A stretch of DNA of 64,000 bases from Candidatus Shapirobacteria bacterium (GTDB lineage Bacteria > Patescibacteriota > Microgenomatia > UBA12405): the NCBI GenBank assembly GCA_028704885.1, contig JAQWEN010000001.1:109172-173171 (forward strand), given 5' to 3'. The notes below the pieces were generated by a model that did no database searches, was not told the DNA's origin, and saw only the letters and a list, made by a program, of their open reading frames with translations. A program made the position numbers and the translations under genes. The first letter of the stretch is position 1. Each line of letters opens with the position of its first letter. Of this stretch, positions 7,574 to 49,185 are shown piece after piece.

Positions 7574-7626
7574 ATCCCTCTCGTTCGCCAGCTGGCGAAC
7601 GCATCTCCCTTTGATAAAAGGGAGAA
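7574..7626. repeat. RPE-like repeat (family 1); the central hairpin is a gttcgccagctggcgaac variant
   Basis: aatccctctcGTTCGCCAGCTGGCGAACgcatctccCTTTgataAAAGggagaa. It lies immediately 3' of tRNA-Ile. Confidence 0.7.
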
Positions 7627-7655
7627 ATTGTTTTTGTTTTGTTAGAATTAAAGAC

Positions 7656-9412: not shown

Positions 9413-9484
9413 GGCTTAATATTATCGTCAAAATGAATTATTGTCTAGCGAACTTTTAGAGATAAACTGAGCTATATTTAGTTG

Positions 9485-9513
9485 TTGACGTGTCTGTTCA
9501 AATTAGGTAGAAT
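9485..9513 (+). promoter_or_regulatory. Near-consensus sigma70 promoter: TTGACG, 17-nt spacer, TAGAAT
   Basis: ttgacg at 9485-9490, tagaat at 9508-9513, spacer exactly 17 nt. Confidence 0.6.
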
Positions 9514-9616
9514 ACTTCCACTTATCGAGATGCTGAAAGTCAACCTAAAAAACAATAAAAACTTTATTAAAGGGGGATTGCCCGCTTAAGAAAGTAAATT
9601 GTAAATGGAATATTGA

Positions 9617-9644
9617 CCGAAAGCTCCGAGCTTTCGGTTTTTTT
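9617..9644 (+). terminator. Intrinsic terminator closing the roughly 130-nt unit that begins at the promoter
   Basis: ccgaaagc-tccga-gctttcgg followed by ttttttt. Confidence 0.6.
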
Positions 9645-9680
9645 ATGACCAAAAGCAGTACTTTAAAGAGGATAGCATTT

Positions 9681-9754
9681 GGGCCTGTGGCTTAGTTGGT
9701 TATAGCGCCTCATTTGCAATGAGGAGGTCGGGAGTTCGACTCTCCCCAGGTCCA
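9681..9754 (+). tRNA. tRNA-Ala (anticodon TGC)
   Basis: Acceptor stem GGGCCTG/CAGGTCC includes a G3:U70 wobble, the alanine identity element. Anticodon stem CCTCA/TGAGG with loop TTTGCAA. T-arm GGGAG-TTCGACT-CTCCC. Confidence 0.85.
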
Positions 9755-9928
9755 CCTACGCATAAAGCTACGGTGGATAAATCCACTAATAAATGGTTAG
9801 AAATAAGGAGACAAAGAAATTTATCTCCTTAAACTAAGTATTTGTACATTAACAATTTATTGAATCGAAAGTAATTTAATTTCAATTTCGTTTATTCTTG
9901 GCAACTAAATTGAGTTGCCAAATATTGA

Positions 9929-12855
<2,927 letters not shown>

Positions 12856-13061
12856 GATTTAAGCTAAGTAGAGAGAAGATTGAAGAAACTTTTTCAATAT
12901 GTTTGGCTTTTAGCCCCAATCAAAATTTGGGATTAAAAGCTGAATGGGCAACTCAATTTAGAGGCCAAGAAGAAGAACTTTAGAGCTTTAGTTCGCTAGA
13001 GCTTTAGATTTTAGAAATTAGAAATTATAATTACATTTTCGATCAAATTTAGTTTTTGAAC

Positions 13062-13178
13062 TCTGGTCATTGGAGCGAAGTGGACCCACCTCTTCCCATT
13101 TCGAACAGAGAAGTGAAACTCTTTAGCGCTGACAATAGTCTTTCCGCAAGGGATCTTGAAGATAGGTCGTGGCCAGAA
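13062..13178 (+). rRNA. rrf: 5S ribosomal RNA
   Basis: 'cttcccatttcgaacagagaagtgaaactctttagcgctgacaatagt' matches the 5S loop-B/C consensus '...CCCATnCCGAACnnGGAAGTnAAGC...'. Terminal helix ctggtca/tggccag. Confidence 0.85.
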
Positions 13179-13210
13179 TTCAGAAACTAAATTGATAGGT
13201 TGTTTAAAAC

Positions 13211-13292
13211 CTCATCACAAAATTTTTTATAATCGGTGAGATCTGCGTAGCAGGCTCAATATTATAAAAAATTGTGATTTCGGATTTAAACA
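13211..13292. repeat. MITE-like palindromic repeat (family 2), copy 1
   Basis: The arms atcacaaaattttttataat and attataaaaaattgtgat flank the core cggtgagatctgcgtagcaggctcaat. About 85% identical to the copy at 54268. Confidence 0.75.
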
Positions 13293-17777: not shown

Positions 17778-19205
17778 TTGATTATAAATTTCCCAAACAA
17801 AATGCCAAAGAAAAAAACCGATGAAGTCATCGTAGTTGAACCTGTTATTGTTCAAAACCCACCCGTTTCTGCTGTTGCAGAAACACCCTCCCTTGAAAAT
17901 GGAGGGCAAAAAAATGAACCTATTAAGACTGAAATAAAGCCAAAAGATAATAATGTGGTTAGTTTTGTGAAATCTTCTTACGCCCCTACGGGGCTTCAGA
18001 AGGACATGCCTGTTCAACAACCACAAATACAAAGACCACAATATCAACCTCAACAAGCACCAAGACCACAGGTTCATTATGCTCCACCAGCTCCAGTCCA
18101 AACTGAAACTATTGAAGGTGCATTAGAAATTATGCAGGATGGTCAAGGATTTGTGAGACCAAAATTTATTCCTAATAATAGAGATGCTTTTATCGGATCG
18201 ATGCAAATTAGACGATACGGACTTAGAGCCGGGGATATGATTTTGGGAGCAGCTAAGGCACCAAAAGAAAATGAAAAATATTGGGCAATGACAAGAATTG
18301 ATAAAGTAAATGGTTTAGATTTGGCTCAGGTTCAAAATAGACCAGAATTTAAAGATTTAGTGCCTATTTATCCGCAAAAACAGATTAAATTAGAAACTGC
18401 TTCGGATGTTTATTCAACTAGAATTATTGATTTATTTTCGCCAATTGGATTTGGACAAAGAGGAATGGTGGTGTCGCCACCTAAGGCAGGTAAAACTACT
18501 TTACTTAAAGAAATTGCAGCCGGAGTGGCAATTAATTATCCAGAGGTCCACTTGATGGCTATTTTAGTTGGAGAAAGACCAGAAGAAGTGACCGATATGC
18601 AAAGATTTATCAAAGGTGAAGTGATTGCTTCTTCTTTTGATCAAAAACCAGAAGAACAAACCAAAGCAGCGGAAATTGCCATGGAAAGAGCTAAAAGATT
18701 AGTGGAAATGGGAAAAGACGTGGTGGTTGTTTTTGATTCAATTACCAGATTAGCTCGAGCCTACAATTTAGCAATTCCGACCTCAGGAAGAACACTTTCT
18801 GGAGGTTTCGATCCAGCCGCTTTATATCCTTCAAAGAAATTTTTTGGAGCAGCTAGAAAAATTGAAAATGGTGGTTCTTTAACTATTATTGGAACTTCAC
18901 TAGTAGATACCGGTTCAAAAATGGATGAATTGATTTTTGAAGAATTCAAAGGAACTGGAAATATGGAACTTAGATTGGAAAGAAACTTAGCCGAAAGGAG
19001 AATTTTTCCAGCTTTTGATATCTTGAGATCGGGAACCAGAATGGAAAATTTACTTTTGGATCCAGCTGTAATGGCAAAAATTATTTCAATTCGTAGAATG
19101 TTTGATGCTTTGGGTAAAGCTGAAGAAACAACAGAAATGATTTTAGGGCAAATGGCCAAAACTAAAAATAATCAGGAATTTTTGGATAAAATTGGTAAAA
19201 AATAA
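17778..19205 (+). CDS. rho: Transcription termination factor Rho with a Q/P-rich N-terminal insertion
   Basis: 'RYGLRAGDMILG' lies in the RNA-binding domain. Walker A 'SPPKAGKTTLLKEIA'. 'ILVGERPEEVTDM' and C-terminal motifs are present. The low-complexity stretch is 'PQIQRPQYQPQQAPRPQ'. Confidence 0.9.
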   Translation: MIINFPNKMPKKKTDEVIVVEPVIVQNPPVSAVAETPSLENGGQKNEPIKTEIKPKDNNVVSFVKSSYAPTGLQKDMPVQQPQIQRPQYQPQQAPRPQVHYAPPAPVQTETIEGALEIMQDGQGFVRPKFIPNNRDAFIGSMQIRRYGLRAGDMILGAAKAPKENEKYWAMTRIDKVNGLDLAQVQNRPEFKDLVPIYPQKQIKLETASDVYSTRIIDLFSPIGFGQRGMVVSPPKAGKTTLLKEIAAGVAINYPEVHLMAILVGERPEEVTDMQRFIKGEVIASSFDQKPEEQTKAAEIAMERAKRLVEMGKDVVVVFDSITRLARAYNLAIPTSGRTLSGGFDPAALYPSKKFFGAARKIENGGSLTIIGTSLVDTGSKMDELIFEEFKGTGNMELRLERNLAERRIFPAFDILRSGTRMENLLLDPAVMAKIISIRRMFDALGKAEETTEMILGQMAKTKNNQEFLDKIGKK

Positions 19206-19332: not shown

Positions 19333-20427
19333 ATGTCGGTGTTAAAAGATAATATTGATAATGAAATTAAGTTGTGGGGGGAATTCCTTAAAGCACAGGG
19401 GGAGTTTTTGAATGGATTTGGAAAAACTTTTTTGGGTTGGGCAGAATTTCTAAAAGTGTTGACTTCAAAAATGATGTATAGACAAAGAGGTAGATTTTCC
19501 CAGACTTTTATTGGAGCCAGTATGGCAATTTTGGCCTTTTTGACAATAGTTTTTTCTAGCCAGCTCGAGGCTTTAATTAATAATAGTGATAAAGGTGAAG
19601 GAAGTACTTATTTAATTATGGCGGCTGATAGTAGCGGAGCAGATACTTTAGTTTCAGATTTACCAAAGGGAGAAATAACGGAATATAGAGTAGTTGAAGG
19701 AGACACTGTATCTTCAATTGCAATGAAATTTGGGGTGACAATAGATACGATTATGTGGGAAAACAACCTTAAATCGGTGGATGCAATTAAACCAAAACAA
19801 ATTTTAAAAATTTTGCCAGTGACTGGGGTGAGATATAAAGTAAAAAGAGGTGAAACTATTTATAGTATTGCTAAAGCTTATCAAGTCGATGCTCAAAACA
19901 TCATTGATTATCCTTTTAATACTTTCAGCAACGATGAAACTTTTGCTTTAAGTGCAGGACAAGAATTAATTATTCCAGATGGTATTAAACCAAAAGAAGT
20001 GGTTATTGATACTGCCAGATATGCGGCCAGATCGGTGGCACCAATTCCAGGAGTGGTTGGTGAAGGAAACTTTATGTGGCCAACTTCAGGTGTTATTACC
20101 CAAAGATTCTCTTGGTATCACAAGGCTGTTGATATCGCCAACCATAGCAATCCAACAATTGTGGCGGCTCAAGGCGGAACAGTTACAACTGCAGGTTGGA
20201 ATGGCGGTGGTTATGGTAATTATGTGGTGGTTAATCATGGAAATGGTTACAGCACTTTGTATGGCCATATGTTAAATAATTCAATGGTGGTTAAAGCCGG
20301 ACAAGTGGTTAAACAAGGCCAAAAATTAGGAATAATGGGAAGTACTGGTCGTTCAACTGGAACACATTTGCATTTTGAAGTTAGAACAACGAATGGAAAT
20401 ATTGATCCATTGAGTGCTTTGAGATAG
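19333..20427 (+). CDS. LysM-domain M23 family metallopeptidase (peptidoglycan endopeptidase)
   Basis: Two LysM domains: 'YRVVEGDTVSSIAMKFGV' and 'YKVKRGETIYSIAKAYQV'. M23 core 'GYGNYVVVNHGNGYSTLYGHM...GSTGRSTGTHLHFEV'. Confidence 0.85.
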   Translation: MSVLKDNIDNEIKLWGEFLKAQGEFLNGFGKTFLGWAEFLKVLTSKMMYRQRGRFSQTFIGASMAILAFLTIVFSSQLEALINNSDKGEGSTYLIMAADSSGADTLVSDLPKGEITEYRVVEGDTVSSIAMKFGVTIDTIMWENNLKSVDAIKPKQILKILPVTGVRYKVKRGETIYSIAKAYQVDAQNIIDYPFNTFSNDETFALSAGQELIIPDGIKPKEVVIDTARYAARSVAPIPGVVGEGNFMWPTSGVITQRFSWYHKAVDIANHSNPTIVAAQGGTVTTAGWNGGGYGNYVVVNHGNGYSTLYGHMLNNSMVVKAGQVVKQGQKLGIMGSTGRSTGTHLHFEVRTTNGNIDPLSALR

Positions 20428-20436
20428 TCAGATACT

Positions 20437-20476
20437 CAGTATGTCAGTATGTCAGTATGTCAGTATGTCAGTATGT
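20437..20476. repeat. Microsatellite (cagtatgt) x5
   Basis: Five perfect 8-bp tandem units, read directly from the sequence, between the M23 peptidase gene and the downstream membrane-protein gene. Confidence 0.85.
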
Positions 20477-20595
20477 CAGGTAGAGAACTGATAATCTGAA
20501 AAACTGAGAAACTAAATTAGCGGAGGAGAATGTGCGGGAAAAAGAGGGTTTTGGAGATTGTCAAAAAAAATGGCTTTTGTTATGCTGGAACTATG

Positions 20596-22602
20596 AATAC
20601 TATTCTCAAATATTATCTAAGAGCGGTTTTTTTGTTGTTTCCAATTGTTTTTATCCCGATAATTCTTGATAGTTTTGCTTTTGGTAAAAATTTAAGTCTG
20701 ATGGTGATGGCATTTTTGGCATTGGTATTATGGACAATTAAATTATTAGCAACTAAGGAAAAAACAGTAAAAACAAATAAATTATTTTGGTTATTTTTGG
20801 TGTACGTTATTTGGAGTGTAATATCATTTTTTAGATTAGATGTTGGAGTCAGAATGCAATCTTTAATGTTGCCAATGGGGATGGGGACGGTTGCTTCGCT
20901 TTTTATGTTATTTTTTGTATGGCTTCAAGTTAACAATAAAGAAGAAACAGAGAAACAATTTTTATTTTTGACAATATCAGGATTGATAATGGGATTAGTT
21001 TCTTTGATTGTGTTTATGTTGCCAGCAAGCAAATTGCCATTATTGATTCCTAAAACTTATCCATTATTATCGATTAATGCGGCTTGGTCTTTGGCTGGTT
21101 CGATTGTAGGAGAGATTATTTTATTTGCCTTTTTAATATTTGGTTGGTTAAAGAAATTGTTAACTAAAATAAAAGAAAAAGCTGAGGTAATAAATTATTT
21201 GACCGATGCAATGGCGGTAGTATTTTTTGGATTATTGTTTTTGTTGGATATTTATCGAATTTTCAAATTGGGATGGGGAATTATGGATGGAAATAGTGTC
21301 TGGGTAATTGCAGTGGAAGCTTTTAAAACAAAGCCTATATTTGGAATGGGAATCGGTAATTTCACTGAGGCTTTTAATATGTTTAGACCAGTTAGTTTTA
21401 ATTTGACTAAATATTGGACTAATGTTTTTTCAGGGTCATCAATGGGAATCTTACAGATTTGGACCGAACTTGGGATTGTTGGTTTGGCTTTGGTAACTTA
21501 TCTAGTGCTGATAGTTTTAAAAATGAAAAAGACAACTAAATTTTGGCAAGTGGTTTTATTTTTAGCAGTAGTTTTGTTTTTACAATTAGATTTAATGTCA
21601 GTCTTTTTATTAGCATGGTTATTATCGAGTGATGTATTGGAAAATAAAGAAAGTAAATTAATTTTGAATGTGGGAGAAAATAATTTTAACGTAATGCCTT
21701 ATTTGTTGGCGGTGGTGATTTTTATTGGGGTTGGTTTTGGTGGATTTTGGATGGGTAAAATGTTTTTAGGGGATTTTTATATGAGGCAATCATTAGTAGC
21801 AGCGACAAATAACGATGGTCTTAAAACATATGAATTGCAAATTAAAGCAATCGGAGTTAATCCAAATTTGGCCAGTTATAGAAAAATATATTCACAGACA
21901 AATTTGGCTTTAGCACAGAGTTTATTAAGTAATAAAGATATTACTGATACAGAAAAAGAAAAGGCTTCTACCTTGGTGCAACAAGCAGTAAGAGAGGCTA
22001 AAACAGCAATTTCTTTGAATCAAAAAAATCCAGAATATTGGTACAGTCTGGCAACTATTTATAAATCTTTAGTAGGGTTGGTTGATGGAGCAGCTGATTG
22101 GAGTTATCAAGCTTATCAACAAGCAATTATTTTGGATCCAGTTAATCCAGTTTTAAGTTTGGATATGGGTGGACTTTTTTATGCAGCGGGGAATTACGAG
22201 CAAGCTGATAGGGCTTTTGAAGAGTCAGTAACTGATAAAAGCGATTTTGCTAATGCTTGGTATAACTGGGCAAATTCGGCTTATAAATTAAAGAAGATTG
22301 ATGTGGCCGTAGCAAGATTAGAACAAGCTTTAAAACTGGTTTCAACTGATTCTGGTGATTACGAAACTGCTTCTAAAGAATTGGAAGTTTGGAAGAAAGA
22401 GTTAGCTGAGGCTGTTAAACAACAACAAGAATTATTAAAACAGCAACAGGCTGAGCAAAAACAACCAGAGACTTTGAAAACAGCAGAACCATTACCAACT
22501 GTGAATCCTGAAGAGAAGGTGAATGTGCCAAGTGAGGAATTAGAACCACCAGCAGTTGAGCCAACAGTGGAACCAACAGTGGAACCAACACCGGGAATTT
22601 AG
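20596..22602 (+). CDS. O-antigen-ligase-like (Wzy_C-type) polytopic membrane protein with a C-terminal TPR domain and a 'VEPT' repeat tail
   Basis: At least ten TM helices. The loop 'VWVIAVEAFKTKPIFGMGIGNFTEAF...ILQIWTELGIVG' resembles the O-antigen ligase signature. TPR-like helices run from about aa 450. The track start at 20530 is an alternative. Confidence 0.5.
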   Translation, partial: NTILKYYLRAVFLLFPIVFIPIILDSFAFGKNLSLMVMAFLALVLWTIKLLATKEKTVKTNKLFWLFLVYVIWSVISFFRLDVGVRMQSLMLPMGMGTVASLFMLFFVWLQVNNKEETEKQFLFLTISGLIMGLVSLIVFMLPASKLPLLIPKTYPLLSINAAWSLAGSIVGEIILFAFLIFGWLKKLLTKIKEKAEVINYLTDAMAVVFFGLLFLLDIYRIFKLGWGIMDGNSVWVIAVEAFKTKPIFGMGIGNFTEAFNMFRPVSFNLTKYWTNVFSGSSMGILQIWTELGIVGLALVTYLVLIVLKMKKTTKFWQVVLFLAVVLFLQLDLMSVFLLAWLLSSDVLENKESKLILNVGENNFNVMPYLLAVVIFIGVGFGGFWMGKMFLGDFYMRQSLVAATNNDGLKTYELQIKAIGVNPNLASYRKIYSQTNLALAQSLLSNKDITDTEKEKASTLVQQAVREAKTAISLNQKNPEYWYSLATIYKSLVGLVDGAADWSYQAYQQAIILDPVNPVLSLDMGGLFYAAGNYEQADRAFEESVTDKSDFANAWYNWANSAYKLKKIDVAVARLEQALKLVSTDSGDYETASKELEVWKKELAEAVKQQQELLKQQQAEQKQPETLKTAEPLPTVNPEEKVNVPSEELEPPAVEPTVEPTVEPTPGI

Positions 22603-22659
22603 TTTTTCAGCTATTCAGTTGATCAGATAGTCAGATAAAAAAGTGTTATCATTATCACA

Positions 22660-23019
22660 ATGATTGATAATAAATTTGAACAACTTAAGGTTTGGCAAAA
22701 AGCTCATCAATTAACTTTAGATATTTATAGAGTAACTAAAAAATTTCCAAAAGAAGAAAAATATTCTTTAGTTGATCAGATTAAAAGGTCTTCTAGTTCA
22801 ATTCCAACTAATATCGTCGAAGGAAATGAAAGAAAGACTAAAAATGAATATATCCAATTTTTATATATAGCTAAAGGTTCTTGCGCTGAGACCAAATATC
22901 ATTTACTTTTATCAAAAGATTTAAATTATCTCTCATTAGAGGAATATATCAATCTAAATGAACAAACTATTGAAATAAGTAAAATGCTTTCTAGTTTTAT
23001 TAATTTTCTTAAAAACTGA
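22660..23019 (+). CDS. Four-helix-bundle protein (TIGR02436 / 23S rRNA-IVS protein family; Avd-like)
   Basis: 'LKVWQKAHQLTLDIYRVTKKFPKEEKYSLVDQIKRSSSSIPTNIVEGNERKTKNEYIQFLYIAKGSCAETKYHL' matches the family consensus, including 'NI.EG..r' and 'A.GS..E'. Confidence 0.75.
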   Translation: MIDNKFEQLKVWQKAHQLTLDIYRVTKKFPKEEKYSLVDQIKRSSSSIPTNIVEGNERKTKNEYIQFLYIAKGSCAETKYHLLLSKDLNYLSLEEYINLNEQTIEISKMLSSFINFLKN

Positions 23020-23047
23020 CTATCTGAAGAACTGATAGTCTGACAAA

Positions 23048-24235
23048 CTAATTGATTATCCACCACTTAAATTCAATGTCTTCATTGATAGGAGAGCTGA
23101 GACCGACAGTAAATGATTCCTTCGATTTGCTCAGGACTTGGAGATTCTGATTTTTGCCACCTTTTGTTGCAGTTACATAGACTTGGGAAGTAGAAGTAAG
23201 TTGACTATTAGAGATAGAAATTTCCTTTTGATTAGATGGTAAAACAGAATTACCAGAGAGAGAATTAGAGTCGGTTTGGTTGGTGACAGCAATAGAAGTG
23301 TCTTCTTCAGGAGCGGCGACAATTAAACCACCATCAGCTAAAGCTTGAATAGTAGGAGAGTCGATGGTTGGAGCGATTGTTGGTTGGAGATTATCGATTG
23401 TCGAAGGGGAAGTATTTTTAAGATTTGGATTTTGAGAAATAAGTTTTTCAAGAGCTGACTTTTCGGATTCAACTTGAATTTTTTGAGTGGAGTCAGTAAC
23501 AATACTTATAAGGCGATTGTAGGTTTCTAATGCTTGAGGGAAAAGACCGACTTGTTGTTGAATCTTGGCTAAGTCATAAAAATTTTGAGCTTTAGTTGGT
23601 TCAAGAGCGACGGTTTGATTTAAATAGAGAATAGTATTTTGAGCATCGCCTTTTTTGGCATAGAGAGAAGCAAGGGTGTGAGTTATTTCAGCAGAAGAAG
23701 GATTTAATTTTTGAGCAGCGGCAATATCAGATATAGATTGATCTATAAGTTTAGGTTGTGAATCAGTAAGTGACTGGTAGATTCGACCGCGTTGTTGGTA
23801 GCCACGATAGTCGTCTGGGAATTCTTTTATGGCTTCAGTAGCAGCTAATATGGATTTATTGAGCAAATCGATGGTTAATGATTGATCTTTTTGGTTTTGA
23901 AGAGCTTGGGTAAATAATTGTTGTGATGTTAAAAGATAATGTTGGATAGATTTAGGTACTTGTGTTGGAGTAGGAGAGTTAGATCTCAGTTTATCAGATG
24001 TCGGTTGATCAGTTAAAACGGTTGAAGAATGACCTTTTAAAATAATTAGGCCGGAAAAAGAAAGAAGAGTGAGACCAGAGATGGAAAGTAAAGGAAAAAT
24101 TGGGAGAGTCAATTTAGATTTCAGTTTGTCAGTTGTCAGTTGTTCAGTTTTTAAAAATTCATTATTTTGATTTGAATCTTTGATGTCAATGCCGAGGGAT
24201 TTTAATTTTTCAATTTGATCGGGGGTGTAATCCAT
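23048..24235 (-). CDS. Membrane-anchored TPR-repeat protein whose C-terminal 'WWIIN' domain is shared with the adjacent giant protein
   Basis: One TM helix 'LPIFPLLSISGLTLLSFSGLIIL', TPR-like repeats and the C-terminus '...SKSKESFTVGLSSPINEDIEFKWWIIN'. Confidence 0.6.
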   Translation of the reverse strand: MDYTPDQIEKLKSLGIDIKDSNQNNEFLKTEQLTTDKLKSKLTLPIFPLLSISGLTLLSFSGLIILKGHSSTVLTDQPTSDKLRSNSPTPTQVPKSIQHYLLTSQQLFTQALQNQKDQSLTIDLLNKSILAATEAIKEFPDDYRGYQQRGRIYQSLTDSQPKLIDQSISDIAAAQKLNPSSAEITHTLASLYAKKGDAQNTILYLNQTVALEPTKAQNFYDLAKIQQQVGLFPQALETYNRLISIVTDSTQKIQVESEKSALEKLISQNPNLKNTSPSTIDNLQPTIAPTIDSPTIQALADGGLIVAAPEEDTSIAVTNQTDSNSLSGNSVLPSNQKEISISNSQLTSTSQVYVTATKGGKNQNLQVLSKSKESFTVGLSSPINEDIEFKWWIIN

Positions 24236-24253: not shown

Positions 24254-27200
24254 TTAGTTAATAATCCACCAGTTAATAATAATGTCTTGATCTAAATAGT
24301 TGTCTAAAGCAATAGTAAAAGAGGATTCTGATTCAGAAACAACTTTGGATTTAACGTATGGAACTTGGTTTTTGGTGGAACCGACTGGAGTGAGATAAAC
24401 CATAGAATTTGGAGTGATTTTATTATTACTAATAATTATTTCAGTTTTGCCGGCTGGAAGGGTGGCAGTGCCAGCGGTGGCATTGGAGGTTAATTGAGAA
24501 GAACTGGTAGCAATGGCACCGAAACCGGATTCAGCAATAATGGTTTGAGCACTATCAGTTGAGATTTTCAGTTTATCAGATATCAGTTCTTCAGATGTTA
24601 ATTTTTTGGTTTGGATTTCGTCGGCAGTAATTAAATTGGCCATTAAACTGCCAGAGACTTTAAGATTGCCGGTGATTTCAACTTCGCCATTTTCGGCAAT
24701 AACCAAAGTGTCGCCCATGATATGAACAGAACCAGTAGAAGATGGTTGAATGAAAAGAGCGGAGTTGGTAGTTTCAATTAAATTATCTTTAATAGCAATT
24801 TCACCAGTAGTGAAAGTGCCAGTGACAAAGGCATTACCAAGTTCGGTGTCGCCTTGGACCATAAGTTTGGCACCGACAACAAGATTATTAGTAAGAGCGA
24901 GATCGCCGTTTATTTTAGCCGAATCACTGGCAATATTCATTGACCAATCAGAAGATTGAGACATAATTGAGCTGCCAGTGATGGCAGAGGATGAGGCTTC
25001 GTTTGTAGAAATTAATTTTTTAAGTTCATCGCGGAGAGAACTAACCTTGGCGGTCATTAAATCACCAAAAGAACCTTCTTTGGAAATAATGTTGTCGGCA
25101 TATAAAGTAGATACGCTCGCTTCGCGGGCTGTCAGTTTGTCAGATATCAGTTCGTCAGTTGTTAAGGTTCCGGAAATGGTGGCAGTGGTAGCAGTTAATT
25201 CGTCAATGTTGGCTTTTGGAGAAATAATTTTTTCAGCGACTAAGTTTTTAGTAACTATATTAGTAGCGGAAATTAAACCAGCTTTGATTTTAGCGGAAGC
25301 GATTTCGGCAAATTGTCCCATGCGAGTGACAGTAGCGCCAAGAGTATCCGTTAGAGAATAAGTGGCTGCCTCGATTTCATTTTTGGCACCATCGTAACCG
25401 AGAGAAGCGAGAACTTCATCGGAAACATTATAATTGACATTAATTTCGCCAGTAGCAGTAATAGAAAGATCTTTATTGAGATTGGTAACTTTAGCATCAA
25501 CTTCTTGAATGCCACGGATGGCTAAAGGAATCATACCAATATAGTTAATACTCTTATAACCATCGCTGCCAGTATTAACGAAACTTGGAAGAATTTGTTC
25601 AACATCTTGGGCAATGAAACCGTATTGTCGTTGAGCCATCTCTTGAGGATTAGTTATACCAACTTTGTCAGCATAAGCTTGGTTCCAATTGAAACTGACT
25701 GGATTAAGACTATTAAGAACGGAAAGACTGTCAAAAATTTCAATATTAGGGTTGGAGCTAGAACCAAGTCCAATGTTAACAACATCATCTTTAAGTCGTT
25801 GATCGGAAAGCCAGCTGGTACTAGAACTCCAGTCAGGAGAATTACTAGAGTAAAAAGGTCGACCATTAGTATCCATACCAATTTGTCGATTGGCATGAGT
25901 AAAACATAATTCATCACCGTTACCGCCAGAGACAGTACATTGAGAGATTGTCCAGCTGCCGATAGTAAAAGCATCACCTTGAGCAACATAAGTATATTCG
26001 GTACTACCGTTGAAGGCACGAATACGATCAGCATGGGTATGAATGTTCCAAATGTTGGCTGTGGTTTCATCTTTAACATTGATACCACCAGCTGATTGGC
26101 TGGAAGGAGTACCAGAGATATAAAGAGCACCGCCGGTTATTTCCATTTTACCGTAGGTAGCATTAGGACTAGCGGTGCCGACACCGACATTGCCACTACC
26201 AGTAAGAGATAAAGCCATTGATTCTCCAGCATTTGGGTATGATTTAACATAAAAACTTAGATTTGTTAAATTAGCACCAGAACCACTAGCAGTGAAGGCT
26301 GATCTGGCGTAATAGCTTGTAGGTTCATTACTATAACTCCATCTTAAGTTAGGACCACTAGAGGAAATATCTAAATTTGATTGAGGATTAGTAGTTCCAA
26401 TGCCGACATTGCCACCAAGAGGATTTAACATTAAAGGAAAAGTAAAATTATCGCTTTCTCTCATTGCTTGTAGCCAAGATCCATAAGTTGGACCTCCAGC
26501 CAGAGTACCAATATGGACACCAGCGTCACCTCCTAAAAATTTTGCAACTGCATTGACAGAAGTTATTGTATTATTTTGTGATCCTTTTACGTCCAATTTA
26601 GCTCCTGGATTGGTGGTGCCGATGCCGACGAGGCCAGTATCAGTGATGATCATTCTATCAGTTGTTCCAGCGTCGGCGTTAGCAGTAGCGAATATTATGG
26701 AACCAGATCCATAATTTGCAGCTCCTCTTTTAACCCAAATTGAGGCATTGTTGGCAGTGTTACCTGTGTTTCTCCAAAATATTTGACCTAAGTTGTTATA
26801 AGAACTGCCACCAGAACTTTTTAGTGCTATATTTCCTGCAACTTCTAATTTTTCCAAAGGATTGGTGGTGCCGATGCCGACTTTGCCAGCGAAATAATTA
26901 TTTCCAGTACCGACAGTACTGATTTCACCAGCAATTTGGAAATCACCGTTACCACTTAGAGCAGCAATATTAGTGGTGGCTAGTTGCCAAATCCAACCTC
27001 GGGTGGTGGCACCAGAAAAACGATTGTATAAAGCCCAATCGTTAGTAACTGGACCATAAGTTCCATAACCAGCGGTGGCAGTGGTTTGCATTTGAGTGAA
27101 ATAACCATTACCTAATGAGCCATAATAACTGAGGGATCTATTACTGCTAGCGGTTAGTTCAATACTAGTTCCAACAACAAGAGAGGTGCCAACATTGAGG

Positions 27201-30200
27201 GAAGTAGAAATATTACCATTGCCAATAACATGTAATTTACTAGTTGGATTAGTGGTGCCGATGCCGACATAACCACCACTTGGTTGTAGAGATAAATTAT
27301 AAGCGACAGCTGTTCCACCAACATTTTGAGATTGTATAAAACCGCTTCCATTGGTTAAAATACCCGAAATTAAACCACTGTTGTTTTCGGCTAATAATCC
27401 AAATTGACCCCAATTATATCCTAGAACTGGAGAATCAGAACTATACTGCCAGACACTTAATGGATAATCATGGGCGGTGGTTCCAATGGCAACATGGCCT
27501 TCAGCAATTGTCATAGCAATAGTTTCATTAGACCAATCATTGGTTGAAAATTGAAGATGACCATATGGGGAGGCAAACCCAGACCAATCAGTATAGGATT
27601 TGATGGTTCCGGTTGGGAAATTATAGCCAGGATTGCCAGTGCGGAATTCAATGGCAGTAGCGTTACCGACAGCCATAGTGGCACTGTTATTAAGAGTTAT
27701 AACTGGACCTAGTCCAGCACTAACAGATTTTTCTAAATGGAGAAGAGTTGTTGGATTGGTGGTGCCGATACCGACATAACCTCCGGTTTTTAAAAATAAT
27801 TGATTATCCCAACCAGTAACAGCGGTACCGGCAGTAGTGGTACCACTGGAAGCAATTAATAAACCGTTAGTGAAATTTTGAATTCTTGAGGCAGCACCAG
27901 CGGTAATGTGATTGCCATTGTCGTTATAATTAAATCTAATTGAACCAATATAAGAAAGAGAAAGAGAACTATTGGTAGTGCTGGCATTGGCTGAATCTAA
28001 TCCAAATTGAGTATCGCCAACATCTAAGAATTTTTGACCAATAACATTATTACTAGCTTTAATATTACCAACAACGTCAAGTTTTTCGATAGGATTGGTG
28101 TTGCCGATACCGACATAACCAGAGGCTAGAATTCTTAAAGCTTCGACAGCACCAACTGAGAGAGATAAATTATTGGTGGTTGGTCTCCAAAGGCCAGTGT
28201 CAGTGTCGGTGATAAAAGAATATCCAGGAGCAGAAACAGTACCATTGGCAGCTAAATGAATTTTAGAAGAACTAATGACAGTGGTACCGCCAATATTAAT
28301 ATTTCCAACTACATTAAGAGAAGTACCAACTGCTAATGAAGTAGTGATATTTCCATTACCAACAACATTGAAAGTAGCAGTACCAGTAGCGCCAACACCA
28401 AATTTACCTGAAATTAAAGCATTGCCGTTAACATGGAGATTGTAAAGAGGATTAGTGGTGCCAATACCGACATAACCAGAGGCTAGAATTCTTAAAGCGT
28501 CGACAGCACCAACTGAGAGAGATAAATTATTGGTGGTTGGTCTCCAAAGGCCGGTGTCAGTGTCGGTGATAAAAGAATATCCGGGAGCAGAAACAGTACC
28601 ATTGGCAGCTAAATGAATTTTAGAAGAACTAATGACAGTGGTACCGCCAACATTAACATTTCCAACTACATTAAGAGAAGTACCAACTGCTAATGAAGTA
28701 GTGATATTTCCATTACCAACAACATTGAAAGTAGCAGTACCAGTAGCGCCAACACCAAATTTACCTGAAATTAAAGCATTGCCGTTAACATGGAGATTGT
28801 AAAGAGGATTAGTGGTGCCGATACCGACATAACCAGAAGTTCCTGGTAAAAGATTAATATCACCCGTGCTGAATGTTGTTGTAAGAGTTAAATTACCAGT
28901 ACTACCATTGTAGAGTTCTATACCACCATACGAACCAGCACCGGCATTATTCCCGTATATTGATTGGGTAGCATCTAACAAAATAGAACCTCCAGCAATA
29001 TCTAATTTTGCTCCAGGGTTGGTGGTGCCGATACCGAAATTGGTGCCGTCTGTCCAAAGATTAGAAGAATTTAAAATTATTTTGCCAGCGTTATAGGTTT
29101 GTAAGGTTAAATTACTGGAACCAAAAACTTCACCGGTATTGATGGCGATTGGGCCGGCGGTGTTAATATTGGCTCCAGTTGAATTAGTAAAATTCAAATC
29201 ATAAGCAATGGAAACATCACCGTTGGAAAGGAAAGCGGTGGGGTTATAAAAAGTATTACCGGCACTAGAGAAAGAAGCAAAAGTAGACCCAGCATCAGAA
29301 AAGGTTAAAGAGAAACCAGAGAGACCAATATCAGTATTTTGAGATAGAAGACCACCAAGACCAAAAGTAATGGAAGTTCCAGAACCAAGAGTGGTAAGAC
29401 CATTGAGACCAGTGAAACTAAGAGTAGAACCGTTACCTATGGAAAGATTATTAGCGCCAATTTTAGCAACCCAACCAAAGGAAGCATTGTTCATGAAAGC
29501 TAGATCTCCTAAAGCTCTTTTAGTAATGGTGCCATTGGAAGCAATGAAGAGAGCAGTAGTACCAACAGAAGTAACATTAGTACCAGTTAGACTAAGAGTA
29601 CCAGCAATACCAACATTATTAAGAGCTGATCGACCAGTAACAGATAAAGTACCACCAATAGAGCCATTAGTACCAACAGTAAGAGAAGTACCAACTGCTA
29701 ATGAAGTAGTGATATTTCCATTACCAACAACATGTAATTTACTAGTTGGATTAGTGGTGCCAATACCGACGTTACCATCGCCAGTAATGCGCATTTTTTC
29801 AACAGGAGAGGAAGCTGCAGTAGGGTTAACAAAGAAAGAAAGATCTATTCTATTTGCCCAACCAGTACCTGCTACAGCCGCAATACCAGCCCATTTATTT
29901 AATTCATTTGGTCCTGCTTCACTACTTATTTTTAATTTTAGACCAGCACCATAATTAGTTAAATTTGCATTTCCTTCATTTTTAATATCCTGACCCCAAA
30001 GTATTTGACTACTATCGGAGCCGGCATATACTTCTAATTCACTTGCTGGGTTGGTGGTGCCGATGCCGACATTACCTGTGTTTCTTTGAATGAATAGAGG
30101 AGTATTCCAAGATGAATCTAAGTTTCCAGCGTTACCGTTATGAATTTGAAATGATAAATCAGATGATCTTGTACTTGCAGCATATCCCGTTTGAAGAATT

Positions 30201-33200
30201 CTTGCTCCATATCCACCCATAGTACCTCCATATCCCATATAAATAGCATTTCCATTATTGTCAGCAGTATTATTATTTTGTAAATATAAAGAATTAACAA
30301 CTGCAGCATAACCACTGTCTGAAATGGTTACTAATGCAGATGTTCCATTTGTTCCCATTACACTTAATTTACTTCCTGGATTAATTGTTCCAACGCCAAC
30401 GTTGCCATCACTTCTGATAACCATTTTGGTATTGGCCAAGGTGTTGGGGGTAGCTGCTTGAGATAAACCAAAAGCTAAAAGTTCATTAGTCCCATCGTAG
30501 TATTCAAATAATCCGGCTGCTCTCATGGTGGCAGCACTATATCTGGACAATATTAGTCCAGGCCCGGGAGTATTAGAACCCGTTTGTAAGGAATAAATTT
30601 CCAATTTTTCGTTTGGACTGGTTGTCCCAATGCCTACATTGCCAGAAGTAAACTGAAGATACATAACCTCAGTAGAACCAATGTTTAAGCGAGTATTTTC
30701 AGTAAGAGCATTGCCTAATTTGAATTGATTTCCGGTACCTAAAGTAATACCGTTGCCAGCAGTGTAGACAGTCCCAGCAGGTAGTGCCACTTGACCAGCA
30801 GTAGTTAATCGTCCTTGAGCATCAACAGTGAAAGTAGGAATAGAAGTACCAGAACCAAAAGAACCAGCAGTGACAGAAGTATTAGCTAAGTTAATATTAC
30901 GACTAACACCAGTACCAGTAATACTGATACCAACTCCATTAGTAAGAGTAGTAATGAAATTACCAGTAGAACCAACACCAACAAAACCAGTACTTTCGAT
31001 ACCATCTAATAAGTCGGCATCTAGGGTGGAAGTTGAACCATCATTATTAGAATTCCAACTTTCGTACCATGATCCCCAGTTGGTGACACCTATTCCCATT
31101 CTGGTCCAAAGGTTACCATTATCGGTATAAGCGATCTGAATTGGGTAACCACCAGACATATCGGTTGTGGCCCCATATTTTCTAAAAGTTAAAACACCAT
31201 GGTAGGTACCACCATCAGACAAACCATCTGTAGTATTGGCTTTGAAATCAGCGTATAAACCGGCATCTCTATCGTCTGGATCATAGTTGTTATTACGAGT
31301 ATCGGAACTAATCATACTGTTTTCGGTTGAAGCTCGACGAGTAAAATAAGTACTGCTAACGCCATCAAGTAAATCAGCATTTAGATTTGTAACTACAGTA
31401 GTATTTTGAGCATTAGTAGCTTTAAGAGTGGTGGTGGTAAGAGTGCCGCCAACCTCAAGATTAGTAGAAAAAGAAGCATTACCAATAACTTCGAGTTTGT
31501 GAGTTGGATTAGTGGTGCCGATACCGACATTGCCAGTAGAAAGATTACCGTAAATAATTGGACTTTGATTATTACCAATATAGAGACGATCATTGTAAGC
31601 ACCAGTGGCACCATTACTATTACCGATGAAAATATTATTGGAACCAGAAGTGAGATTCATGCCAGCCTGATAACCAATAGCGATATTTGAACTTAAAGTG
31701 GTACCAGAACGAAGTGCAGACGTACCTAAAGCAGTATTATAGCTACCGCTAACATTGGCACTAAGCGAATAATGACCCAAGCTGGAGTTACTAGAACTAG
31801 TATTAGCTTGTTGTGAATAAAAACCAATAGCAGTGTTGTAACTACCACTAACATTACTATAAAGAGAGATTGTTCCAGCAGCAACATTCTGACTACCAGT
31901 GGCATTACTATAGAGAGATTTGAAGCCAAAGGCGGTATTACTACTACCACTAGTATTGGAATATAAAGCTTGATAACCAAAACCACTGCCAGAGGATGCG
32001 GTATTGGTTCTACCAACGCCAACTCCAACGAAGGTACTGTGAGATGTATCATCACTGTCGGCTCGAATTTCTAAATTAACAGTACCGTTGGCATTAAGAA
32101 TATTGAAGGCTGGAGTTGTAGAATTTATTGAAGCAACTGTTAATTTAGCAAGAGGATTAGTAGTGCCAATACCGACGTTGCCAGAATTTGGATTAATAAG
32201 AACGTCACCAAAAGCACTACCAGCTGCGTTTACACCTTGAATCATAGCTTTTGCATTAGATTGTCCCATAAGAAAACCAGCTGATGAACTCTTAAACCAA
32301 GTATTATATCCAGATGAATCATTACCTTGAAAAATGGCAGCTTTTTCATTTACATTACTAATAACTTCCAACTTCGCTCCTGGACTGGTAGTCCCAATAC
32401 CCACATTACCACTAGCATATTGCAGGTACATAACCTCAGTAGAACCAATATTTAATCGAGTATTTTGAGTTAGAGCACCACCAAGTTGAAAAATATTATC
32501 AACAGTTTTAGTAATACCGTTATTGGAATTGTAAGTAGTGCCAATAGAAGTATTGTTAATCGTAATACTTGATCCAGATTGAACAAGAGAAATACCAACA
32601 CCATTATTGAAAGTGACAGTGGAACCAGTATCAATAGCAGTAGCAGCACCACTATTAGCTTGAAGCATCCAGTTTTGATAATCATCAGCACTAGATTTAT
32701 CCCAACCAACGGTACTGATGTAACCCATCAAACCACTATTACCACTTAAGAAAGCAGCAACAGAAGAACCACCAATAGCAGTATTACTGATATTTAATGA
32801 AGCAGTAGTAGTGGTAGTACCGACAGCTAAAGAAGTAGTGAAATTTCCATTGCCAACCACATTGAAAGTAGCAGTACCAGTAGCACCAACACCAAACTTA
32901 GACACTAAACCAGTACCAGAGATCCAGAAGTTAGAAGTAGATTGAGCAGAAGCAAATTGATTTTGAATGTAACGAGTATCAAAATTAACAGTAGCTAAAC
33001 TAGTTAAATGACCTAAACCATCAAGAGTAATATCTTGAATAACAGTACCGTTACTATTATCAGAGGAAGCTTGAGAAGAAGTATCAGCATGAGAGATAGT
33101 AGTACCAACTCCAGTACCAGTAATGACCATGGAAGTACCAGCTTGAAGATTGAGATTATTTTCAAAAGCTAAAGTACCAAGAACTCTTTTGGTAACAGTC

Positions 33201-35941: not shown

Positions 35942-36356
35942 TTTCTACCCAATTTATAAATTGATGAATATCATTGATATAGTTACGAATAGTCGAAATG
36001 GAGAATTTTTTGGTTTCGAGCTGCTGTTGATATTGACTAATAATATTTTCAAGGTTAGTTTGTGGTTGAACTTTGAGAGCTTTGAGAAAAGGATTTTCAG
36101 AAATTAAATGTTGGTCTAAAGCAAATTGAAAGAATTTAGAGAGAGAGGCAAGAAAACGTTTATAGTTTTGGTCTTGATTAATGTTTTGAAAATAGGAAGT
36201 TAAATTATCTTGATTAAAAATTTGATCAGTTAATTGATTTTCATCTGGATTAGTAAAGAGAAAGTATTTTCGCAAATCCATTAAGTAGTTTCTGATAGTG
36301 GCATCAGAGTAAGACTTGGACAGAAGCCAATTTTTATAAGAATTGACTATTTCCAT
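35928..36356 (-). CDS. Protein made only of phage-integrase N-terminal (SAM-like/core-binding) domains, two tandem copies, with no catalytic domain
   Basis: 'YKNWLLSKSYSDATIRNYLMDLRKYFLF' and 'LETKKFSISTIRNYINDIHQFINWV' fit the XerC/D N-domain pattern f..yL....S..Ti..Y...l..f..f. There is no R..HxxR..Y catalytic region. It overlaps the giant-gene start by 14 nt. Confidence 0.6.
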   Translation of the reverse strand: MEIVNSYKNWLLSKSYSDATIRNYLMDLRKYFLFTNPDENQLTDQIFNQDNLTSYFQNINQDQNYKRFLASLSKFFQFALDQHLISENPFLKALKVQPQTNLENIISQYQQQLETKKFSISTIRNYINDIHQFINWVESGAK

Positions 36357-49129: not shown

Positions 49130-49157
49130 GTTTGTCAGTTTTTCAGATTGTCAGATA

Positions 49158-49185
49158 AAAAGCCCCCGAAAGGGGGCTTTTTGAT
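49158..49185 (+). terminator. Intrinsic terminator after ppdK
   Basis: aaagccccc-gaaa-gggggcttttt. Confidence 0.7.

What the first reader, a model, noticed from the sequence alone, without database searches (positions are those of the whole stretch)
22660..23019. Avd-like four-helix-bundle protein next to the giant and TPR surface-protein genes but no reverse transcriptase in the window
The protein matches the 23S-IVS / four-helix-bundle family to which DGR accessory variability determinants belong. CPR genomes frequently carry diversity-generating retroelements that target giant surface proteins. No ORF with RT motifs (YxDD) and no obvious TR/VR pair were found within this 64 kb. The protein is therefore either a standalone family member or the remnant or distant component of a DGR. 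A palindrome 'TTATCAtTATCAcaatgATTGATAA' overlaps its start codon and may be an operator.
Basis: partly seen in the sequence, partly recalled or inferred. Interest (0 to 1): 0.5.

Follow-up and report, generated by a model that had tools for sequence, protein, structure and literature searches.

The report
Repeat-flanked four-helix-bundle gene cassette, not DGR
The small gene is an ordinary member of the '23S rRNA intervening-sequence' four-helix-bundle family rather than a retroelement part, but it sits inside a hairpin made of short tandem repeats, a gene-plus-repeat cassette that changes position between related genomes and recurs across many bacterial phyla, which may explain what both this protein family and the puzzling 7-8-base repeat arrays of bacteria are for.

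Summary
The ORF at 22660-23019 is real. It scores far above threshold for PF05635/TIGR02436 and below threshold for both Avd models. Its model superposes on Xcc0516 (TM 0.93) better than on Avd (TM 0.79, 10% identity). The window holds no reverse transcriptase and no adenine-biased repeat pair, so a DGR role is unsupported. The start-codon palindrome is no better than chance and is not conserved.

The gene is bracketed by a 36-nt inverted repeat (22599-22634 / 23016-23051) built of TCAGnnnn octamers. This fills the whole gap between two convergent genes. An 'empty' hairpin of the same octamers lies one gap upstream (20420-20515).

- In related Shapirobacteria with the same gene order, the cassette occupies four different gaps in either orientation, or is absent.
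- Family-wide, 76% of 78 homologues have significant flanking inverted repeats, against 5% of neighbouring genes.
- The arms are tandem heptamers or octamers whose unit covaries with the protein.
- Xanthomonas Xcc0516 orthologues lie between accB and accC inside inverted GGGAATC arrays, a published heptamer repeat of unknown function.

Best reading: a relocating, IVS-type cassette outside rRNA whose protein is paired with its own repeats. How the protein acts on the repeats is inferred, not shown.

The parts
22599..22634 (+). Left arm of the cassette. It holds TCAGnnnn octamer units at 22607, 22615, 22623 and 22631. Its outer end, TTAG, supplies the TAG stop (22600-22602) of the upstream TPR gene.
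   Evidence: Inverted repeat I1: 36 nt, 81% complementary to 23016-23051. The three-unit TCAGnnnn pattern occurs 11 times in the window and 0 times in shuffles. This arm closes the predicted fold of 22590-23060, z = -3.6.
22635..22659 (+). A-rich leader between the left arm and the start codon. No Shine-Dalgarno motif is visible, and the scan found no plus-strand promoter-like site here.
   Evidence: Sequence. The promoter scan found no plus-strand site upstream of the ORF. The palindrome is not above background and not conserved.
22660..23019 (+). Gene for a 119-aa four-helix-bundle protein of the 23S-rRNA-IVS type (PF05635 / TIGR02436). It is identical to NCBI MDD4410218.1 from a Candidatus Shapirobacteria MAG.
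   Evidence: AlphaFold pLDDT 96. Foldseek match to 2GSC at TM 0.93. dN/dS of 0.04-0.22 against orthologues.
23016..23051 (+). Right arm of the cassette. It holds CTGAnnnn units at 23016, 23024, 23032 and 23040, then CTAA. The first unit contains the gene's own TGA stop (23017-23019). The outer end supplies the TAG stop (23048-23050, minus strand) of the convergent TPR gene.
20420..20515 (+). 'Empty' hairpin of the same repeat type, in the next intergenic gap upstream. It has about 7 TCAGnnnn units (5 are TCAGTATG), an 8-nt loop, then 3 CTGAnnnn units and CTAA. No ORF lies inside. In relatives L005, L006 and L007 the four-helix-bundle gene sits in this same gap.
   Evidence: Fold z = -2.1. Synteny.
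49130..49160 (+). Solo arm of TCAGnnnn units (77% identical to the left arm region 22594-22641). A GC-rich terminator-like hairpin follows it. It lies upstream of an IS200-like Y1 transposase ORF.
   Evidence: Repeat family D16..
20530..22602 (+). Upstream neighbour: a TPR-containing membrane protein gene, co-directional with the cassette. It is the likely source of read-through transcription (inference).
   Evidence: Across the family, 63 of 69 upstream neighbours are co-directional against an 80% background.
23048..24235 (-). Downstream convergent neighbour: a TPR protein gene ending in WWIIN*.

Best explanation
This is a stand-alone, IVS-type four-helix-bundle cassette and not a DGR component. 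It is about 450 bp long (22599-23051). It consists of a protein gene under purifying selection, enclosed by two inverted arrays of an 8-nt tandem repeat (TCAGnnnn / nnnnCTGA). It is wedged exactly between the stop codons of two convergent host genes.

This is the same architecture as the ORF-bearing intervening sequences of 23S rRNA: an S23p-type ORF, tandem heptamers and a terminal stem. Here it lies in an ordinary intergenic gap.

Shown:
- The gene and its arms travel together and occupy different gaps in related genomes.
- 'Empty' hairpins of the same repeat sit in neighbouring gaps.
- The architecture is family-wide.
- The repeat unit covaries with the protein.

Inferred:
1. The gene has no predicted promoter of its own and is transcribed by read-through from the upstream gene.
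2. The arms pair into a stem of about 36 bp that an RNase III-type enzyme could cut, as happens for rRNA IVSs. This would release or insulate the cassette RNA.
3. The protein, a homopentamer in its solved relatives, binds its own 7-8-nt repeat arrays. It would thereby regulate, maintain or spread them. This would resemble the pairing of a RAYT gene with its dispersed REPINs, although the protein is not a known recombinase.
For: Family assignment.

No RT or TR/VR.

Bracketing repeat: 36 nt, 81% complementary. It closes the predicted fold, z = -3.6. TCAG octamer arrays occur 11 times against 0 expected.

Site variation within a conserved block (Rho - LysM/M23 - TPR690 - TPR395 - giant):
- The gene is at LysM|TPR690 in L005, L006 and L007.
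- It is at TPR690|TPR395, forward, in the window, L003, L008 and L089.
- It is at that same gap but reversed in L009 and L014.
- Extra copies lie at Rho|LysM and giant|TPR395 in L014, and a contig-cut partial copy at giant|TPR395 in L089.
- It is absent from all these gaps in L087, L088 and L090-L101.
- L007 and L008 carry nearly the same arm (AGCTCATCAGCCT...) at different gaps.

Selection and divergence:
- dN/dS is 0.04-0.22.
- Cassette dS among L005, L007 and L008 is 0.45-0.86, against 1.0-1.5 for flanking genes.

Family-wide pattern:
- Significant flanking inverted repeats occur in 76% of 78 family genes against 5% of 896 other ORFs in the same loci.
- The arms are tandem 7-mers, or 8-mers in this clade.
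- The unit covaries with the protein: Mantel r = 0.46, 0 of 2000 permutations reached it. Three paralogues in L014 each have their own unit.
- Cognate arrays elsewhere in the same loci number 36, against 1.75 expected for non-cognate units.
- Arrays at gene-free gaps: 6 of 9 in genomes that carry the gene in this block, against 5 of 43 in those that do not.

Cultured-organism check: Xcc0516 orthologues sit between accB and accC inside a 45-nt inverted repeat of GGGAATC heptamers, z = 12-15. Rehm et al. 2015 (PMC4692102) reported that heptamer as enriched in Xanthomonas, with 70 convergent pairs and no known function.

Precedent: the Coxiella 23S IVS has GACAGAT heptamers upstream of its S23p ORF, a 28-bp terminal stem and RNase III excision (PMC4990558).

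Expression context: the upstream neighbour is co-directional in 63 of 69 cases, and the median gaps are 45 and 54 nt. No plus-strand promoter-like site lies upstream of the ORF.
Against: No recombinase is encoded, and no target-site duplication or precise empty-site/filled-site pair within one species was found. Movement is inferred from comparison between species, and its mechanism is unknown.

Mismatches in the arms show no excess of G:U-compatible pairs on the sense strand (61 against 53, not significant). Selection for an RNA stem specifically is therefore not shown. The repeats could act as DNA.

About a quarter of family genes lack a significant inverted repeat, and some (L033, L066, L078) have direct rather than inverted arrays.

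The empty hairpin in the window folds only modestly better than shuffles, z = -2.1.

Protein-repeat covariation could partly reflect co-inheritance rather than binding.

In Coxiella the homologous ORF appears untranslated and decaying (PMC4990558).

The lower dS of the cassette rests on only 119 codons and could reflect constraint on synonymous sites.

The rest of the 735-kb genome was not scanned.
Confidence: 0.6

Rival explanations
1. The repeat hairpins are the mobile or self-propagating entity. They could be a MITE/REPIN-like element or slippage-prone repeats moved by some other enzyme, for instance a Y1/RAYT-type transposase like the one at 49197-49739. On this reading the four-helix-bundle gene is a passenger lodged in the loop of some copies and has no action on the repeats.
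For: Empty hairpins exist without the gene. A solo arm lies just upstream of an IS200-like ORF. The four-helix-bundle protein has no recombinase features and no PADLOC hit. Xanthomonas has about 70 inverted array pairs (PMC4692102).
Against: The repeat unit tracks the protein lineage, and three paralogues in one genome each have a different unit. A passive passenger would not be expected to show this. The gene is under strong purifying selection. Arrays are scarce in relatives that lack the gene in this block.
Confidence: 0.2
2. It is an ordinary, static small chromosomal gene. The flanking repeats would be by-products of repeat-rich intergenic DNA acting as bidirectional terminators. The different positions in relatives would reflect independent gains and losses, or local rearrangement, rather than a defined cassette.
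For: The gene lies between convergent genes, where terminator hairpins are expected. The close relative L088 has a different (REP-like) hairpin in the same gap. The wobble test gives no RNA-specific signal.
Against: The enrichment is 15-fold: 76% against 5% for neighbouring genes in the same loci. Identical arms travel with the gene between gaps. The gene sits inside the accB-accC operon in Xanthomonas, where no terminator is expected. Both the period-7/8 structure and the unit-protein covariation are unexplained by this reading.
Confidence: 0.15
3. It is a DGR accessory protein (Avd). It would either work in trans with a reverse transcriptase elsewhere in the genome or be left behind by a decayed DGR that targeted the neighbouring giant surface protein.
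For: It has the same fold superfamily as Avd (TM 0.79 to 4DWL), with weak sub-threshold hits to the Avd models. The rest of the genome was not examined.
Against: It scores below both curated Avd cut-offs and has 10% identity to Avd against 33% to IVS-type pentamers. There is no RT or TR/VR in 64 kb. No DGR-RT motif lies in the flanks (up to 10 kb each side) of the 80 homologue loci. The orthologues move among gaps that are unrelated to any RT.
Confidence: 0.05

Closest known systems
ORF-bearing intervening sequences (IVS) of 23S rRNA (Coxiella burnetii, Leptospira)
   Same: It has the same protein family (S23p / PF05635) and about the same size (about 430-450 nt). [quoted passage not shown] Tandem short repeats lie upstream of the ORF (GACAGAT x3 in Coxiella, TCAGATAG-like here), with copy number varying between strains (PMC4990558).
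   Different: It is not in rRNA. The window's 23S gene (9929-12896) is uninterrupted, and the element lies between two protein genes. The ORF is under strong purifying selection, whereas the Coxiella ORF appears untranslated and decaying. RNase III excision is demonstrated for rRNA IVSs but only inferred here.
Avd, the accessory variability determinant of diversity-generating retroelements
   Same: It is a four-helix bundle of the same superfamily, with a pentameric barrel in solved relatives. Avd's role as a nucleic-acid-binding partner suggests by analogy that this protein binds nucleic acid (TM 0.79).
   Different: Identity is 10%, and it scores below both Avd model cut-offs. There is no adjacent RT, TR or VR. 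It is flanked by tandem-repeat arrays instead.
Over-represented intergenic heptamer repeats (GGGAATC in Xanthomonas, GGGGAYT in Nostoc, TAACTGA in Beggiatoaceae; cyanobacterial STRR)
   Same: These are tandem 7-nt units in intergenic DNA. They often occur as convergent (inverted) pairs, vary in copy number, are transcribed and have no known function (PMC4692102, PMC4679880). The Xanthomonas four-helix-bundle gene is flanked by exactly this GGGAATC repeat.
   Different: Neither of the two repeat papers I read (PMC4692102, PMC4679880) links the repeats to PF05635 proteins. The unit in this window is an octamer. STRR is recalled from my own knowledge; I read no STRR paper and did not test the comparison.
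REPIN-RAYT systems
   Same: A single-copy gene is flanked by the same short repeat that is dispersed through the genome as inverted doublets. Each gene lineage is paired with its own repeat sequence. The RAYT side of this comparison is from my own knowledge of PMC3116915, which appeared in a search but which I did not read.
   Different: A RAYT is an HUH/Y1 transposase with a known DNA-cleaving chemistry. The four-helix-bundle protein has no recognisable catalytic motif. The repeats here are tandem 7-8-mers, not palindromic REPs.

Membership tests
PF05635 / TIGR02436 four-helix-bundle (23S rRNA IVS) protein | Score above the curated HMM cut-offs | tested here: met
   PF05635 scores 148.8 bits (cut-off 33.8). 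TIGR02436 scores 139.4 bits (cut-off 24).
PF05635 / TIGR02436 four-helix-bundle (23S rRNA IVS) protein | Four-helix up-down bundle superposable on the solved members Xcc0516 (2GSC) and BT_0352 (2RLD) | tested here: met
   The model has pLDDT 96. It matches 2GSC at TM 0.93, rmsd 0.8 and 33% identity, and 2RLD at TM about 0.8. phmmer gives E = 1.6e-16 to 2GSC.
PF05635 / TIGR02436 four-helix-bundle (23S rRNA IVS) protein | Homopentameric assembly | not testable with these tools
   Only a monomer was modelled. The pentamer is known for 2GSC and 2RLD, each with five chains.
DGR accessory variability determinant (Avd) | Score above the Avd-specific models (NF033474 equivalog, PF22296 bAvd) | tested here: not met
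   NF033474 scores 45.1 against a cut-off of 80. PF22296 scores 38.6 against 40.
DGR accessory variability determinant (Avd) | Adjacent DGR-type reverse transcriptase | tested here: not met
   No RT appears in Pfam scans of 31 window ORFs. There is no IGNxxSQ...YxDD motif in six frames of the window or of the other 86 loci then held.
DGR accessory variability determinant (Avd) | Template/variable repeat pair with adenine-specific mismatches | tested here: not met
   Self-BLAST found 28 pairs of at least 50 nt. The maximum adenine bias is 62%, 8 of 13 mismatches, inside the giant gene's internal repeats.
DGR accessory variability determinant (Avd) | RT or TR/VR anywhere else in the genome | not testable with these tools
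   The source is a 735-kb contig, of which only this 64-kb window could be read.
23S rRNA intervening sequence (IVS) element | Inserted in a 23S rRNA helix (helix 9, 25 or 45) | tested here: not met
   The element lies between two protein genes. The 23S gene at 9929-12896 matches the full Rfam model, positions 1-2925, without a large insert.
23S rRNA intervening sequence (IVS) element | Terminal inverted repeats forming a long stem around the ORF | tested here: met
   The arms are 36 nt and 81% complementary. They close the minimum-free-energy fold, z = -3.6.
23S rRNA intervening sequence (IVS) element | Excision of the element from the transcript by RNase III | not testable with these tools
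   This needs transcript-end mapping. The sense-strand wobble test gave no RNA-specific signal (61 against 53).
Transposon / MITE | Terminal inverted repeats that move with the element | tested here: met
   L007 (gap A) and L008 (gap B) share the arms AGCTCATCAGCCT... / ...AGGCTGATGAGCT.
Transposon / MITE | Encoded or identifiable transposase, and a target-site duplication | tested here: not met
   The only ORF is the four-helix bundle. No duplication is evident at the arm boundaries. No same-species empty/filled pair was available.
REPIN-RAYT-like gene-repeat partnership | Gene flanked by the same repeat that is dispersed elsewhere in the genome, with lineage-specific pairing | tested here: met
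   The window holds three TCAG-array loci. Cognate arrays elsewhere in the loci number 36 against 1.75 expected. Mantel r = 0.46. Xanthomonas GGGAATC arrays flank the gene.
REPIN-RAYT-like gene-repeat partnership | HUH/Y1 transposase chemistry in the flanked gene | tested here: not met
   The protein is PF05635 with no Y1_Tnp match.

The most novel reading that the evidence does not exclude
PF05635 four-helix-bundle proteins are the missing protein partners of the over-represented intergenic heptamer/octamer tandem-repeat arrays of bacteria. Those arrays include Xanthomonas GGGAATC and the CPR TCAG arrays seen here, and possibly the cyanobacterial and Beggiatoaceae heptamers. On this reading each pentameric protein recognises its own repeat unit. 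Gene plus arrays would form a widespread, self-propagating cassette system, of which the classical 23S rRNA intervening sequences are only the rRNA-resident subset.
Probability: 0.4. Interest if true: 0.85.

Novelty: new variant of a known kind. Interest (0 to 1): 0.68.

Why it matters
Three puzzles have stood apart for decades:
- what the ORF-bearing intervening sequences of 23S rRNA are and where they come from;
- what the very large 'four helix bundle / S23' protein family does outside DGRs;
- why 7-nt tandem repeats are over-represented in the intergenic DNA of many bacteria.

The evidence here ties them together. The gene is almost always embedded in arrays of such repeats. The repeat unit tracks the protein. 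The cassette changes position between related genomes.

This makes the question directly testable in a cultured organism that already has a crystal structure. Does the Xanthomonas Xcc0516 pentamer bind GGGAATC arrays, and what happens to the arrays, and to accB-accC expression, when the gene is deleted?

For annotation, it is a warning that PF05635 hits in CPR genomes should not be read as DGR remnants.

Tried and rejected
- **DGR reading.** Rejected on the HMM cut-offs, the absence of an RT motif, the Pfam scans of 31 ORFs and the mismatch spectrum of all repeat pairs.
- **Start-codon palindrome as an operator.** Rejected: it is not above background and not conserved.
- **Defence-system role.** No PADLOC match.
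- **RNA-specific selection on the stem.** The G:U against A:C asymmetry was not significant, so RNase III processing remains an inference.
- **Stop codons in the repeat unit as the reason for a 7/8-nt period.** 76% of 5'-arm units carry a stop on the sense strand, against 63% for composition-shuffled units (maximum 78% in 500 shuffles). This is only a weak lead.
- **Locating the source genome.** The exact-protein look-up returned only a 1-kb contig, and the source is not among the genome contigs representatives. The rest of the genome could not be scanned.
- **Literature.** Nine searches found no paper linking non-rRNA PF05635 genes to flanking repeat arrays. The library covers only open-access papers and bioRxiv, so prior description elsewhere is possible.

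Full report
**1. The observation**

The ORF at 22660-23019 (+, 119 aa) is present as described. It matches PF05635 (23S_rRNA_IVP) at 148.8 bits and TIGR02436 'four helix bundle protein' at 139.4 bits, both far above their cut-offs. The identical protein is already in NCBI as MDD4410218.1, 'four helix bundle protein', from a Candidatus Shapirobacteria MAG on a 735-kb contig. An AlphaFold model built on 46 homologues has pLDDT 96 and four long helices.

The neighbours are:
- Rho (17778-19205);
- a LysM/M23 peptidase (19333-20427);
- a TPR membrane protein (20530-22602);
- a convergent TPR protein (23048-24235, -);
- a 3895-aa giant protein (24254-35941, -).

**2. The DGR interpretation**

The two Avd-specific models are both missed. 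NF033474 scores 45.1 against a cut-off of 80, and PF22296 scores 38.6 against 40. A sequence search of the PDB finds the IVS-type pentamers Xcc0516 (2GSC, E = 1.6e-16) and BT_0352 (2RLD) but not Avd. By fold, 2GSC matches at TM 0.93 and 33% identity, while Avd (4DWL) matches at TM 0.79 and 10% identity. The relationship to Avd is therefore at superfamily level only.

Three searches for DGR parts were negative:
- Pfam scans of 31 ORFs in the window found no reverse transcriptase.
- A six-frame search for the DGR-RT signature found nothing in the window or in the other 86 loci then held (6 short contigs, and 80 homologue loci with up to 10 kb of flank each side).
- No repeat pair shows adenine-biased mismatches.

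I could not read the rest of the genome, so a distant RT is not excluded. Nothing positive points to one.

The start-codon palindrome is no stronger than about 12 such hairpins per kb in this AT-rich window. It is missing from the orthologous cassettes of L005, L007 and L008.

**3.

A 36-nt inverted repeat (22599-22634 / 23016-23051, 81% complementary) brackets the gene and closes the predicted fold of the region, z = -3.6. The arms are tandem octamers: TCAGnnnn four times on the left, CTGAnnnn four times on the right. The outer ends supply the stop codons of both flanking genes, and the first right-hand unit holds the gene's own TGA. The cassette thus fills the intergenic gap exactly.

The three-unit TCAG pattern occurs 11 times in the window and never in shuffles. 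The other sites are:
- an 'empty' hairpin one gap upstream (20420-20515), with about 7 units, an 8-nt loop and 3 inverted units (fold z = -2.1);
- a solo arm at 49130-49160.

**4. The cassette changes place**

The block Rho - LysM/M23 - TPR690 - TPR395 - giant is conserved in about 20 Shapirobacteria contigs. The four-helix-bundle gene is found as follows:

| Position | Loci |
|---|---|
| Between LysM/M23 and TPR690 (where the window has the empty hairpin) | L005, L006, L007 |
| Between TPR690 and TPR395, forward | window, L003, L008, L089 |
| Same gap, reversed | L009, L014 |
| Extra copies at Rho\|LysM and giant\|TPR395 | L014 (both gaps); L089 (a contig-cut partial copy at giant\|TPR395) |
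| Absent from all these gaps | L087, L088, L090-L101 |

L005 is the mirror image of the window: the gene is in gap A and an empty TCAG hairpin is in gap B. L007 (gap A) and L008 (gap B) share the same arms, and their similarity ends at the arm boundaries. So the arms travel with the gene.

In the block, array-like repeats at gene-free gaps occur at 6 of 9 gaps in genomes that carry the gene, against 5 of 43 in genomes that do not. The closest relative, L088, has a 13-nt gap A and an unrelated REP-like hairpin in gap B.

The protein is under strong purifying selection, with dN/dS of 0.04-0.22. Among L005, L007 and L008 its synonymous divergence (0.45-0.86) is below that of the flanking genes (1.0-1.5). 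This is compatible with more recent sharing, but it rests on only 119 codons.

**5. The architecture is family-wide**

I analysed 80 loci from the genome collection, spanning CPR, Omnitrophota, Planctomycetota, Bacteroidota, Desulfobacterota, Elusimicrobiota, cyanobacteria and others.

- Of 78 family genes, 76% have a significant inverted repeat between their 120-nt flanks (z > 3, median z 7.5). The figure is 5% for 896 other ORFs in the same loci.
- The arms are arrays of tandem heptamers, or less often octamers or nonamers. The median paired length is 31 nt, about 4-5 units.
- The unit differs between lineages: TAAGCTN, TAGATGC, GGAGTAR, CAGAGGA, AGTAAAA and others. It covaries with the protein (Mantel r = 0.46, 0 of 2000 permutations). 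All 21 pairs of proteins less than 30% divergent share a unit within one mismatch.
- One protein cluster with the TAAGCTN unit carries taxonomic labels from several phyla. Three paralogues within 6 kb of L014 each have a different unit.
- Cognate arrays also occur elsewhere in the same loci: 36, against 1.75 expected for non-cognate units.
- Upstream neighbours are co-directional in 63 of 69 cases against an 80% background (p = 0.02). Median gaps are 45 and 54 nt, which leaves little room for a separate promoter.

**6. A cultured-organism check**

Orthologues of Xcc0516, the family member with a crystal structure, lie between accB and accC in Xanthomonas genomes. They sit inside a 45-nt inverted repeat (z = 12-15) built of GGGAATC heptamers.

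That heptamer is the repeat that Rehm et al. 2015 found strongly enriched in Xanthomonas intergenic DNA. They reported about 186 sites in X. campestris, 70 of them as convergent pairs, mostly transcribed and of no known function. Their main text does not mention the gene (PMC4692102).

The Coxiella 23S IVS likewise has three GACAGAT heptamers upstream of its S23p ORF, with strain-variable copy number. It has a 28-bp terminal stem that RNase III cuts (PMC4990558). PF05635 ORFs also occur in CPR rRNA insertions (PMC11270868).

Nine literature searches found no paper connecting non-rRNA PF05635 genes with flanking repeat arrays.

**7. Mechanism**

Shown:
- the cassette anatomy;
- its variable position;
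- purifying selection on the protein;
- family-wide association with inverted 7-8-nt arrays;
- unit-protein covariation;
- dispersal of cognate arrays.

Inferred:
- read-through transcription from the upstream gene, since no plus-strand promoter-like site was found;
- pairing of the arms into a stem that an RNase III-type enzyme could cut, by analogy with rRNA IVSs;
- binding of the pentameric protein to its own repeats.

The wobble-pair test gave no sense-strand RNA signature (61 G:U-type against 53 A:C-type mismatches). The repeats may therefore act as DNA. No recombinase, target duplication or same-species empty/filled pair was found, so how the cassette moves is unknown.

My probabilities are:
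- about 0.9 that this is not a DGR Avd;
- about 0.7 that gene plus arms form a unit that relocates;
- about 0.4-0.5 that the protein acts directly on its cognate repeats;
- about 0.4 for RNase III-type processing at this locus.

**8. Verdict**

The gene itself is an ordinary, already annotated member of a very large family. The DGR and operator ideas are not supported. The locus is nevertheless a clear example of an IVS-type cassette outside rRNA. It led to a family-wide regularity, repeat arrays paired with the protein, that I could not find described and that is experimentally testable in Xanthomonas.

I class it as a new variant of a known kind and score interest at 0.68.

Noticed in passing
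window 49197-49739 (+), with 49311-49335 and 49522-49546: This is an IS200-like Y1 transposase (RAYT-like) ORF, PF01797 at 28.7 bits. It carries two in-frame GC-rich 25-nt palindromic inserts in inverted orientation inside an otherwise AT-rich gene. A solo TCAG-octamer arm and a GC-rich terminator-like hairpin lie just upstream (49130-49185).
   Followed up: partly
window 936-996, 5311-5371, 7366-7426, 35639-35699; also 13206-13287, 42877-42958, 53221-53302, 54262-54343: Two families of GC-rich REP-like intergenic repeats (double hairpins) are dispersed through the AT-rich window. The first family also fills the TPR690|TPR395 gap of the close relative L088, in place of the four-helix-bundle cassette.
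   Followed up: partly
window 7490-13178: The rRNA region is unusual. tRNA-Ile is followed by a GH18 gene (7611-8771) and a VTT-domain gene (8768-9412, -), and only then by tRNA-Ala, an uninterrupted 23S and 5S. No 16S gene lies upstream of tRNA-Ile; ATP-grasp genes are there instead.
   Followed up: no
window 23048-24235 (-) and 24254-35941 (-): The 395-aa TPR protein and the 3895-aa giant protein share a homologous C-terminal segment of about 80-100 aa ending in WWIIN*. The segment is conserved in relatives, and may be a sorting or anchoring signal.
   Followed up: no
window 35928-36356 (-): This 142-aa ORF consists only of a phage-integrase N-terminal SAM-like domain. It abuts the start of the giant gene, whose own N-terminus looks similar by eye (not tested). 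It may be a frameshifted or split N-terminal extension.
   Followed up: no
window 37927-38241 (+): A Gp49/HigB-like toxin-family ORF (PF05973, 68.9 bits) lies between the giant gene and a 1292-aa laminin-G/DUF2341 surface protein gene.
   Followed up: no
L014 8403-8744, 9986-10357, 13679-14053: Three four-helix-bundle paralogues lie within 6 kb of one Shapirobacteria genome, in three different gaps of the same conserved block. Each is flanked by arrays of a different repeat unit (AAATTCT-like, CTAGGAN, ACGAATTT).
   Followed up: partly
L120-L124 (Xanthomonas), gene at 1501-1830: The Xcc0516-type gene with its GGGAATC arms is inserted inside the otherwise universally adjacent accB-accC pair. 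This implies the cassette is tolerated within an essential operon.
   Followed up: partly
L009 11060-11250 (minus strand as read): A gene-free gap holds arrays of two different unit types side by side: TAGATCN heptamers and CTGAnnnn octamers. It looks like the remains of successive occupancy by different cassettes.
   Followed up: no
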